DNA of 64,000 nucleotides, from assembly GCA_001661245.1 (NCBI GenBank), contig KV454014.1, positions 62,001 to 126,000 on the forward strand, written 5' to 3'. The DNA is from Pachysolen tannophilus NRRL Y-2460 (lineage: Eukaryota). Under the pieces are notes generated by a model. The model saw nothing but the letters and a program-made list of their open reading frames with translations, was not told where the DNA came from and did no database searches. The translations under genes and the position numbers were made by a program. Shown piece after piece: positions 15,952-18,661 of the stretch (positions are counted from its first letter, which is position 1; each line of letters begins with the position of its first letter).

Positions 15952-15961
15952 TCGGCGGTTA
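15952..15961 (+). promoter_or_regulatory. URS1-like (Ume6-type) early meiotic element upstream of ZIP1
   Basis: TCGGCGGTTA, one mismatch to TCGGCGGCTA, about 110 bp upstream of the ZIP1 ATG in otherwise AT-rich DNA. Confidence 0.55.
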
Positions 15962-16068: not shown

Positions 16069-18470
16069 ATGTCAAACTTCTTTCGGGATACAAATCTTTT
16101 CAAACCGAGGAAAAATAATATATTTTCATCCTCATCTTCATCTGCGTTAAATGCCGATAAACATAGGAATCAGCAAGATTTATCTTCATCAGTATTAAAT
16201 GGTGATGTGCTGTCGTCTCCAGAGAGAAGAAATAATAGCAGTAATAAGAATGATGATTTTTTTATGAATCAAGATAATTCAGTTTTAAGTACGGAGGATT
16301 CAAACATTTCAACGAATATAACTTCTGGTCCAAAAAAGACATCAACTGCAAATACCTCTGTCAAAGATGTTTCCCTCAAAGATAATAATAATAATAATAA
16401 TAATAATAAAGTTATTCATCAAGAAGGGGAAGAAGAAGAAGAGGAAGATGACGATTCGTTTAATAATAGCTTTGAAATAATGGAAATTAGGGATGTTAAT
16501 GGTCAAACTCAAACGAATAATGATGTTACATCTCCTGCAACAACAACCACTTACTCCAAGTCAGAGCTTGATAAGAATGACCAAAATGAGTCTGATTTGA
16601 AAAAGATGAAATCAGTTGAAGTTACAAGATTGGTGACAGATGACGATTCATTACAACCTTTGTTGTTAACAATTCAAAGTTTAACTAATATTCGTCACCA
16701 ATTAGAATCTAAATTAAAAAATTCACAAGATATTATTAGTCAAAAAAATGAAGAGATTAGAAATAATAAAGATAGAATTCAAGCCATAAAACAAAAAGTA
16801 GAGAAAGCTGTACAATTGATTGGGTTATTAAACGATGAAATTATTTCTGTTAAAAGTGAAAAAAATGAATTTTTCAACAAATTAACAGATATTCAAATTG
16901 AAAATCAAACATTTCATACAAAGCTAGGAGAATCAAAGTTTCATGTTGAGAATTTATCTAAGAAATTAGATGCCTTGAGAAACAAATTCATTATAAATAA
17001 TTCAGAAGTGGAAAAAAAAGATTTAATCATTAACAATTTGAAATCTAAGATTAATGATTTTTCAGGAAGATTATCAGAAGAAAAACTAAGAGCAATTGGA
17101 CTAGAAAAAGAACTTGATCATTCTCGTAAAAATTATGATTCAAATATTGCTAGAGAAGCTGAACTTAGAATGAAATTTCAGGAAAAATTTGAATCTCAAA
17201 GATCAAATTTAAAACTTGAATTTAAGTAAGTACAAGAACTTACCCCTTTTTTCATTAGTCTGATAATTTACTAACTCTTACCTCTATCTTTAACAAAGAA
17301 ACATATCTGAATTTTTTGAAAAAAAAATCGATGTTATACAAACCACTTTAACTACACGATTTGATAATATTAATGAAAAGTACAGTTTTACCTTTTTTTC
17401 TTTCAATTTTATTTATTTACATTTCTTAATTGACTAATTACTAATTTTTTTTAATGTTTTTTTATAATTCAGTATTGATCAAAATGCAACTGATGTGATT
17501 AAAGATAAATTGGAATATTTAAATTCAAATATTGAAAAGCTTGAGACAAATTTTTTTGAAAAGCTTTCAAAGTGGGATTCTGTTCCTACAACTATCACCA
17601 AAGAACAAGAAAAATCATTTTTGGAATTGAAAAAAGAAATTAACGGAGCCTATGACAAAATATTAATCTCTAATGGCAATTTGAAAGATGGTATTACCAC
17701 CGATTCATCCAAAGTCAATGAGAAATTTGAAAAAATATTTAAAGATTTTGGATCATTTTCAAATAAACTTGATCAACAACAAAATTCACTTGAAAGTTTT
17801 GATGAAATTATAGAAGAAAAATTAAAAGAAAAACAAGAATTAAATACAAGATTGCAAACGGCAACGGATGAATTGGTTCTTCAAAAACTAAGAAACGAAG
17901 AATTAATGAAAGAACTAACTTTGAATCAAACAAAATCTCTGGATGGTAAATCTGAAATAGAAAAATTGCACAAGAAAATTGAAGAGCTGACTCAAGAGAA
18001 CAAACGGTATATAAACGAATTAAAAGAGCTAAAAGATGATATCAAATTAAGAGAAAGCAAATTAGCTGAATTCGAGAAAACTTCTATAATTGAAAGAGAA
18101 AATTTCATTAAATCCTATGAAAGTAAATTGAGATCACAAACTGATTTAAATACACAAATTGTAAATGAAAATGAAAAAGCCAAAGAATCTGCAAGACATG
18201 AATTATTACTGATGAGAAAATCTTATAACGAAATTAAAATCAGTCTTAATTCAACTTTACATGAAAATCAAACTTTAAAAGATCAACTTTGCAATTTGAA
18301 GAAATTTTCAAATTCTAAATCAATACCAAAAAAAGAACTTGAAAAAACTAAAGTTTGTAAAAATTCGACTGATCAAAGAAAAATCCAAAGAAATGAGACA
18401 ATTCAAGTTAAGGAAAAAATCATAAATAATGCAGATAACGATGATTATGCAGATAATGTTGATGTTAACG

Positions 18471-18501
<31 letters not shown>

Positions 18502-18661
18502 TGATGATGTTTTTGAGCTAAGATCAAGTCCTAAAACTTCTCCTGAACCACAATTTTTAAGAAAGCTGCTGAAAAGGAAAAGAAAGTTAATTGATGATCG
18601 TTCTCAAAATGAAAGTATCAATCTGAAAAATTATTTGAAAAAAAAACTGGCAAACCAGTAA
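16069..18661 (+). CDS. ZIP1: Synaptonemal-complex transverse filament protein Zip1; 3 exons (16069-17225, 17299-17379, 17473-18661), 808 aa
   Basis: N-terminus MSNFFRD..FKPR..NIF, FEIMEIRDV and SGRLSEEK match recalled Zip1 motifs (MSNFFRD, FEITEVREV, SGQLSEEK). Long coiled coil. Two introns join track ORFs 16033-17229 and 17495-18661 in frame. Lies between DPP1 and a YDR286C-like gene, as in S. cerevisiae. Confidence 0.9.
17226..17298 (+). other. ZIP1: Spliceosomal intron 1 of ZIP1 (73 nt, phase 2)
   Basis: GTAAGT donor, TACTAAC at 17269-17275, first downstream AG is AAG at 17296-17298; removal restores the frame. Confidence 0.88.
17380..17472 (+). other. ZIP1: Spliceosomal intron 2 of ZIP1 (93 nt, phase 2)
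   Basis: Non-consensus GTACAG donor, T-rich body with in-frame TAA at 17435-17437, GACTAAT/TACTAAT branch candidates, CAG acceptor; joins in frame to exon 3. Confidence 0.8.

What the first reader, a model, noticed from the sequence alone, without database searches (positions are those of the whole stretch)
17220..17475. ZIP1 introns look built for regulated (meiotic) splicing: 5' splice sites hidden in hairpins, weak signals, early stops
Seen: in intron 1 the donor GTAAGT (17226-17231) is followed, after a 6-nt loop, by its exact complement ACTTAC (17238-17243), the same sequence as the U1 snRNA pairing end, so a hairpin can mask the donor. The acceptor is the rarer AAG, and retention gives a stop one codon later (AAG TAA). 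Intron 2 has a non-consensus donor GTACAG that can also fold back (AAAAGTA/TACCTTTT), a TACTAAT branch and an in-frame stop. Both introns have TTACCYYT within about 20 nt of the donor (17240, 17388), a 6/8 match to the Mer1 enhancer AYACCCUY. Established: S. cerevisiae ZIP1 is intronless, while Mer1/Nam8 activate weak introns in the meiotic genes REC107, HFM1, SPO22 and AMA1. Inference: this lineage may gate synaptonemal-complex assembly by splicing ZIP1 itself. Whether it has Mer1 cannot be seen here.
Basis: partly seen in the sequence, partly recalled or inferred. Interest (0 to 1): 0.75.

Follow-up and report, generated by a model that had tools for sequence, protein, structure and literature searches.

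The report
ZIP1 joins an expanded meiotic-splicing set
In the yeast Pachysolen tannophilus, the gene for the chromosome-pairing protein Zip1 has two predicted introns that share a short TTACC signal with weak introns in six other meiosis genes, which likely puts it under a meiosis-only splicing switch known so far from just four genes in baker's yeast.

Summary
The sequence features are real. The gene is ZIP1 of Pachysolen tannophilus (synteny, N-terminus), and a two-intron model gives an open 808-aa frame. The key element is not the hairpin but the motif TTACYY just after the donor. It also sits 8-12 nt into the weak-donor introns of SPO22, HFM1 and AMA1 (known Mer1 targets) and of MSH5, REC102 and REC114. 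TTACC occurs in 0 of 96 consensus-type control introns, and the DMC1, HOP2, MND1, REC8 and SAE3 introns lack it. The genome holds NAM8 and a single-KH MER1 candidate with the Mer1-type Arg and Gln. Best reading: a larger, rewired Mer1-type regulon that includes ZIP1 (about 65%). Corrections: intron 1 has consensus donor and branch, AAG acceptors are common here, both hairpins fold no better than shuffles, and four of the six stem pairs come with the motif. Against: no RNA data, and seven non-meiotic or unidentified introns carry the motif or a variant. Indirect hints suggest ZIP1 introns in other yeasts. The scan noted Mer1-type introns before in other genomes, not in ZIP1.

The parts
15952..15960 (+). 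URS1-like early-meiotic promoter element TCGGCGGTT (consensus recalled)
   Evidence: 2 matches in the window vs 0.05 expected
16069..17225 (+). ZIP1 exon 1 (385 codons plus 2 nt)
   Evidence: homologs align from residue 1
17226..17298 (+). Intron 1, 73 nt, phase 2: consensus donor GTAAGT, branch TACTAAC 17269-17275, acceptor AAG
17226..17243 (+). Predicted 6-bp hairpin pairing the donor with ACTTAC; its 3' arm overlaps the motif
17240..17247 (+). TTACCCCT, candidate Mer1-type enhancer at intron position +15
17299..17379 (+). Exon 2, 81 nt, frame-preserving; left out of the deposited 781-aa model P0001
   Evidence: A content 0.47, like exons at 0.42-0.45, unlike introns at 0.25-0.32
17380..17472 (+). 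Intron 2, 93 nt, phase 2: non-consensus donor GTACAG, branch TACTAAT 17439-17445 (second candidate GACTAAT 17432-17438), acceptor CAG
17388..17395 (+). TTACCTTT, candidate Mer1-type enhancer at intron position +9
17473..18661 (+). ZIP1 exon 3 to the stop codon

Best explanation
Both predicted ZIP1 introns carry the TTACYY element found in this yeast's SPO22, HFM1, AMA1, MSH5, REC102 and REC114 introns, and are likely removed efficiently only when a meiosis-specific Mer1-type KH protein binds it. In this model Mer1, with Nam8 in the U1 snRNP, holds U1 on the adjacent donor. Intron 2 would depend on it through its weak GTACAG donor. Intron 1 has a consensus donor; its hairpin may damp that donor until Mer1 binds the single-stranded motif and opens the stem (the weakest step, about 35%). 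Without activation, retention gives a stop at codon 387 or near codon 432, so no full transverse filament would be made. Shown: sequences, frames, motif distribution, presence of NAM8 and a KH candidate. Inferred: splicing, Mer1 identity and binding, meiotic timing, hairpin role.
For: Prediction made from the known targets: 3 of 3 orthologs with an intron (SPO22 GTATTT, HFM1 GTAGTT, AMA1 GTAAAG) have TTACYY at exactly +8, vs 2 of 96 controls anywhere in +6..+30 (Fisher p 6e-5). Of 24 introns in genes picked by family, 4 of 5 with clearly weak donors carry it (adds MSH5 intron 2) and 0 of 19 with GTAAGT, GTATGT or GTATGA. Motif-first searches returned REC102 (PF21736, E 4e-31) and REC114 (intron splits PF03525 at positions 61/62). 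The REC114 and MSH5 introns share their first 15 nt. In S. cerevisiae, C-to-U at the 2nd or 3rd enhancer C keeps full Mer1 activity (PMC3082912 section 17), which covers TACCTT and TACTCT. P0002 has one C-terminal KH domain with Arg at the Mer1 R214 position and Gln at the Q243 position, where six PCBP-like KH domains of this genome have Arg. It lies beside an SSB-type Hsp70, as MER1 does (gene order recalled). NAM8 ortholog: E 3.4e-80. URS1-like site upstream of ZIP1.
Against: No RNA evidence for splicing or regulation. The deposited model uses one 247-nt intron, and the one full-length homolog does not decide between the models (score 480 vs 474; anchor spacing 275 vs 296 for two introns and 269 for one). 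Donor 1 is consensus, whereas a non-consensus donor defines Mer1 targets in S. cerevisiae. The motif or a variant also occurs in seven non-meiotic or unidentified intron candidates: MYO1, a 46-codon ORF, an FKS-family glucan synthase, a sugar transporter, a DUF202 gene, a SEM1-like gene and a 5'-UTR-like intron. SPO11 intron 1 has a non-consensus, unresolved donor with no motif. The MER2/REC107 ortholog has no intron in its ORF. Raw genome-wide pattern counts are below their reversed controls (106 vs 221; 69 vs 195). The first enhancer base differs (T for A). No sequence search linked P0002 to a named Mer1 (one search found only itself; one search gave a 0.82 lead). No URS1 was found before the MER1 candidate, SPO22, HFM1 or AMA1.
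Confidence: 0.65

Rival explanations
1. TTACYY is a general helper for weak donors, read by a constitutive factor such as Nam8 or a PCBP-like KH protein. ZIP1 is then spliced whenever it is transcribed, and meiotic control is transcriptional only.
For: Four weak-donor intron candidates in non-meiotic or unidentified genes carry the motif at +8 to +10: the MYO1 distal donor, the 46-codon ORF, the FKS-family gene and the sugar transporter. Two three-KH PCBP-like proteins are present. ZIP1 has a URS1-like site.
Against: Eight of the 15 motif-bearing intron candidates lie in seven meiotic genes, including all three known Mer1 targets that have an intron here. The motif matches functional Mer1 enhancer variants. 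A Mer1-like KH gene is present. The FKS paralog may be a spore-wall gene (not tested).
Confidence: 0.17
2. The motif acts by RNA pairing alone. It copies the U1 5' end, folds back on G|GUA(A) and silences the donor, and some other change in meiosis relieves the block.
For: TTACCTT equals nt 5-11 of the local U1 snRNA. Predicted donor-motif stems form in ZIP1 intron 1, SPO22, AMA1 and MYO1. The full donor complement is absent from 96 controls.
Against: Stems are not more stable than shuffles. HFM1 and REC102 donors are easy to open (50 and 72 of 96 controls are as hard or harder). Donors GTTTGT, GTATTT and GTACAG pair poorly with TTACC, yet the motif is kept unchanged. The pyrimidines after TTACC do not covary with the donor.
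Confidence: 0.08
3. The stretch is one 247-nt intron as deposited, or exon 2 is mostly skipped, giving a 781-aa Zip1; the inner sites are relics or a minor isoform.
For: Deposited model P0001; in-frame skip; spacing to the Candida arabinofermentans homolog is nearer the skip form.
Against: A perfect TACTAAC with a frame-restoring AAG, an open exon with coding-like composition, and a second donor with the motif at +9. Even under this reading donor 1 and its motif are used.
Confidence: 0.1

Closest known systems
Mer1/Nam8 meiotic splicing regulon of Saccharomyces cerevisiae (AMA1, MER2/REC107, MER3/HFM1, SPO22; PMC3082912, PMC11585973)
   Same: Pyrimidine-rich ACYY-core element within 25 nt of a weak donor; same target genes SPO22, HFM1 and AMA1; single C-terminal KH protein with the two essential residues; Nam8 present; retention gives early stops.
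   Different: Consensus TTACYY rather than AYACCCUY, mostly at +8. Extra candidate targets ZIP1 (two introns), MSH5, REC102 and REC114; the latter two are spliced largely without Nam8 in S. cerevisiae (PMC3082912 Table 1). No MER2 ORF intron. ZIP1 intron 1 has a consensus donor paired to the motif. Nothing here is tested by experiment.
Lachancea kluyveri and L. thermotolerans ZIP1 'pseudogenes' SAKL0Gp7 and KLTH0Gp3 (PMC2876123)
   Same: Full-size ZIP1 loci interrupted by a shared frameshift (4 stops and 2 frameshifts in L. kluyveri), the pattern an unannotated intron gives; REC107, a known intron gene, was called a pseudogene in the same study. A later paper calls ZIP1 ubiquitous in the genus (PMC4937564).
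   Different: Published as pseudogenes, not introns. I could not see their DNA, so position and motif are unknown.
Structure-based masking of a 5' splice site, such as RPL30 autoregulation (figure legend in PMC11585973; details recalled)
   Same: A stem predicted to cover the donor.
   Different: Here the stem is short, not unusually stable, and overlaps a candidate activator site, so protein binding would open it rather than stabilise it.

Membership tests
Mer1-dependent intron | Enhancer AYACCCUY within 25 nt of the donor | tested here: inconclusive
   6 of 8 match at +15 and +9; exact consensus absent from all local targets; the C-to-U variants are functional in S. cerevisiae; the first base differs
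Mer1-dependent intron | Non-consensus 5' splice site (intron 2) | tested here: met
   GTACAG
Mer1-dependent intron | Non-consensus 5' splice site (intron 1) | tested here: not met
   GTAAGT is the local consensus; a predicted stem may weaken it
Mer1-dependent intron | Element shared with the local orthologs of known targets and absent from ordinary introns | tested here: met
   SPO22, HFM1, AMA1 3 of 3; TTACC 0 of 96 and TTACYY 2 of 96 controls
Mer1-dependent intron | Nam8 in the genome | tested here: met
   E 3.4e-80 to S. cerevisiae Nam8
Mer1-dependent intron | Splicing requires Mer1 and Nam8 and rises in meiosis | not testable with these tools
   Only DNA-like runs were held
Mer1 protein (P0002) | One C-terminal KH domain with Arg214- and Gln243-equivalent residues | tested here: met
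   KH at 238-309; Arg aligned with hnRNP K KH3; Gln six residues before the conserved Gly, where other KH domains have Arg (read by eye across an insertion); residues defined
Mer1 protein (P0002) | Sequence homology or synteny to named MER1 | tested here: inconclusive
   No homolog by word search; Atlas lead 0.82 to a 252-aa Ascomycota KH cluster; lies between an SSB-type Hsp70 and a PTP-like gene, with RIO2-like beyond (names and S. cerevisiae order recalled)
Mer1 protein (P0002) | Meiosis-specific expression and an N-terminal activation domain | not testable with these tools
   No URS1 found upstream; no expression data
Zip1 | Long coiled coil with the conserved N-terminus | tested here: met
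   Coiled-coil Pfam hits only; three yeast homologs, two sharing MS[NT]FFRD; that S. cerevisiae Zip1 starts this way is recalled
Zip1 | Synteny GCN2, DPP1, ZIP1, YDR286C | tested here: met
   RWD-kinase-HisRS, PAP2 and Glrx-like neighbours; ZIP1 = YDR285W; neighbour order recalled

The most novel reading that the evidence does not exclude
The four-gene Mer1 regulon of baker's yeast is the remnant of a larger ancestral splicing switch over double-strand-break and ZMM crossover genes, with Zip1 itself as a target. ZIP1 introns persist unrecognised in other yeasts (Lachancea 'pseudogenes', truncated gene calls), and in Pachysolen a U1-mimic enhancer both hides a consensus donor and recruits its activator.
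Probability: 0.35. Interest if true: 0.78.

Novelty: new variant of a known kind. Interest (0 to 1): 0.62.

Why it matters
In the papers I could read, Mer1 targets are described only for S. cerevisiae, as four genes. A distant homothallic yeast with at least seven candidate meiotic targets and a shifted, position-fixed motif would show how a splicing regulon gains and loses members, and it yields a short list of direct tests. It would also correct gene models: the deposited Zip1 lacks 27 residues, and Zip1 coiled-coil length influences synaptonemal complex width (PMC2199901, start of abstract only). It suggests that ZIP1 'pseudogenes' in Lachancea are intron-bearing genes.

Tried and rejected
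No RNA holder listed. The four runs laid on the gene behave as DNA contigs of one sample, with no joints; this says nothing on expression. Two metagenome scans for ZIP1 relatives found no locus, so intron DNA of relatives and hairpin covariation could not be examined. Homolog searches for the KH protein and the 489-aa ORF found nothing else. Hairpins as unusually stable structures: rejected. AAG as a rare signal: rejected. Early stops as a special feature: rejected. A loose first pattern (78 matches vs 285 control) was mostly noise; 19 sites were read and only MYO1 was new. MER2/REC107: an upstream GTATTT or GTATAT donor with TTACCTCT and no clear branch point was left unresolved. My first guess at the SPO11 intron 1 donor failed and it stays unresolved. 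MSH4 and HOP1 show no intron. MYO1 as a clean member: set aside, because the consensus donor 24 nt upstream is the likelier one and the distal donor adds a hydrophobic 8-mer to a coiled coil. Qiu et al. 2011 RNA (cDNA rescue) was not held.

Full report
Identity. The only hit of exon 1 in the word-based search is a Pachysolen tannophilus protein identical to it (P0001). The window lies on G000:C4. The gene begins MSNFFRD, is coiled-coil, has three distant yeast homologs, and is flanked by a GCN2-type kinase and a PAP2 phosphatase on one side and a glutaredoxin-like gene on the other. This matches the S. cerevisiae order around ZIP1/YDR285W (locus name, neighbour order recalled). A URS1-like site lies 117 nt upstream of the start. 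I accept ZIP1. That S. cerevisiae ZIP1 is intronless is recalled; it is not among the 14 meiotic intron genes in PMC3082912 Table 1.

Gene model. Introns 17226-17298 and 17380-17472 around an 81-nt exon give 808 codons. They use the only acceptor and donor that keep the frame. The deposited model skips the exon (781 aa). Exon 2 has exon-like composition, but the one full-length homolog does not discriminate between the models. No RNA run was listed, and the four runs laid are DNA-like.

All are at the stated places. GTAAGT with TACTAAC is the local consensus (77 matches vs 16 for the reversed pattern). AAG closes 7 of 16 motif-less meiotic introns. As controls I used 96 pattern-defined intron candidates held in loci (71 GTAAGT, 25 GTAYGT), drawn from the 77 and 60 matches and from other held loci. 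The reversed patterns gave 16 and 28 matches, so some controls are chance sites, and four are DMC1 introns. Opening donor 1 costs 5.1 kcal/mol (11 of 96 controls as high) and donor 2 costs 3.6 (33 of 96). Shuffle z-scores are near zero. The full donor complement occurs in 0 of 96 controls, but the motif's TTAC already pairs with GTAA. The two extra bases have a background of about 2%, so the stem is only mildly surprising.

The motif. I then looked at orthologs of the known Mer1 targets. SPO22 (GTATTT), HFM1 (GTAGTT) and AMA1 (GTAAAG, an in-frame intron with a stop) each have TTACYY at +8. TTACC occurs at +6..+30 in 0 of 96 controls and TTACYY in 2 of 96; 3 of 3 vs 2 of 96 gives p = 6e-5. The MER2 ortholog has no ORF intron, only an unresolved upstream donor-plus-motif. 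Of 24 introns in genes picked by family (SPO22, HFM1, AMA1, MSH5 x3, DMC1 x8, HOP2 x4, MND1, REC8 x2, SPO11 x2, SAE3), four carry the motif, all at +8 and all with weak donors (the fourth is MSH5 intron 2, GTTTGT). None of the 19 with GTAAGT, GTATGT or GTATGA does, and SPO11 intron 1 has a weak unresolved donor without it (SAE3 read by eye). DMC1 intron 5 has a CACC variant and HOP2 intron 3 a TACC overlapping the donor; I did not count either.

Motif-first searches. One search gave 106 matches (100 listed). Of 79 sites classified, seven join reading frames as introns: ZIP1 x2, SPO22, HFM1, REC102 (three TTACC copies), MYO1 and a 46-codon ORF. One search gave 69 matches. All distinct sites but two were classified, yielding MSH5 intron 2 and REC114, whose introns share their first 15 nt. 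(17 matches; 13 classified) added a DUF202 gene and a 5'-UTR-like intron before an unidentified ORF. (32 matches; 28 distinct sites) added a sugar transporter and an FKS-family glucan synthase, both with weak donors and TTACCTC at +8, and a SEM1-like gene (name recalled) with TTACTTC. In total there are eight introns in seven meiotic genes and seven candidates elsewhere. REC102 and REC114 were found by the motif, so they are not independent tests of it, but they show which genes it picks. Raw counts in all these searches are below the reversed controls; the signal lies in which real introns carry the motif.

Trans factors. NAM8 is present (one RRM locus tested). Of the KH loci, one encodes a single C-terminal KH domain (P0002). 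It has the Arg and Gln that PMC3082912 section 18 shows essential in Mer1 and sees in D. hansenii and P. pastoris homologs. It lies next to an SSB-type Hsp70, as recalled for MER1. PMC8567612 reports syntenic MER1 homologs in Phaffomycetaceae, Ascoideaceae and Saccharomycopsidaceae; its supplements do not mention Pachysolen. No search tied P0002 to a named Mer1, so orthology is likely, not shown. C-to-U changes at the second and third enhancer C are tolerated in S. cerevisiae, which fits the local variants.

Relatives. Two unnamed homologs end 56-57 residues after the conserved GRLSEEK-type anchor with KYV and a short tail, against 53 for the intron 1 junction here. That is what read-through of a phase-2 GTATGT donor would give; it is a hint only, as their DNA could not be fetched. 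PMC2876123 lists full-size ZIP1 'pseudogenes' with a shared frameshift in two Lachancea species and likewise REC107, while PMC4937564 calls ZIP1 ubiquitous there. I infer unannotated introns.

Mechanism. Most likely a Mer1-type protein binds UUACYY next to the donor in meiosis and, with Nam8, stabilises U1. Intron 2 fits the known pattern. Intron 1 is the only meiotic member with a consensus donor and the only one with a full donor-complement stem. Because the skip from donor 1 to acceptor 2 is in frame, a brake on donor 1 would be needed for tight gating, which gives the hairpin a rationale; this step is inference (about 35%).

Literature. Ten searches showed no report of a ZIP1 intron or of Mer1 targets outside S. 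cerevisiae beyond intron presence in S. ludwigii; most subscription journals are not held. Seen: PMC3082912 passages and sections 13, 17, 18; passages of PMC8567612, PMC11585973, PMC2876123, PMC4937564, PMC5433688, PMC3276169; supplement passages of PMC8567612 and PMC2876123; start of abstract only for PMC2199901. Curated annotations such as YGOB may already hold ZIP1 introns; I could not check.

Verdict. A new variant of a known kind: a probable larger Mer1-type regulon including ZIP1, well supported by comparison within one genome and untested at the RNA level. Interest 0.62.

Noticed in passing
G000:C7:836617 and 836593, - strand (L097, L180): Myosin II (MYO1-type) gene with a mid-gene intron and two in-frame donors 24 nt apart: a consensus GTAAGT in a predicted hairpin (opening cost 5.98 kcal/mol) and a weak GTAATG with TTACCCT at +8. 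Possible regulated alternative donor.
   Followed up: partly
G000:C1:1963955, - strand (L402): FKS-family glucan synthase with a weak GTAAGA donor and TTACCTC at +8; could be the spore-wall paralog, not tested.
   Followed up: partly
G000:C4:289078, - strand (L392): Sugar transporter with a weak GTACTT donor and TTACCTC at +8.
   Followed up: partly
L122:1466-1745: Unidentified 46-codon membrane-type ORF with a GTAGTA donor and TTACCTT at +10.
   Followed up: partly
G000:C5:394377, - strand (L372): 5'-UTR-like intron candidate (GTATGT, TTACCTT at +8) before a 489-aa ORF without Pfam match or homologs.
   Followed up: partly
L042:1462-2613, - strand: The MER1 candidate itself has a 90-nt intron (GTAAGT, TACTGAT, AAG) without the motif; the deposited model P0002 removes a second, in-frame segment near the N-terminus.
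   Followed up: partly
G000:C6:618900-620520 (L282): DMC1 has eight introns and HOP2 four in this yeast, far more than in S. cerevisiae (recalled).
   Followed up: partly
G000:C2:116985-117815 (L294, L295): A MutS_V match is split into two parts on opposite strands: possible inversion or assembly error.
   Followed up: no
G000:C7:285775-285912 (L279): U1 snRNA match of about 140 nt, much shorter than the 567-position yeast model.
   Followed up: partly
window 45990 (+) and 59906 (-): Further consensus-type intron candidates in the window.
   Followed up: no
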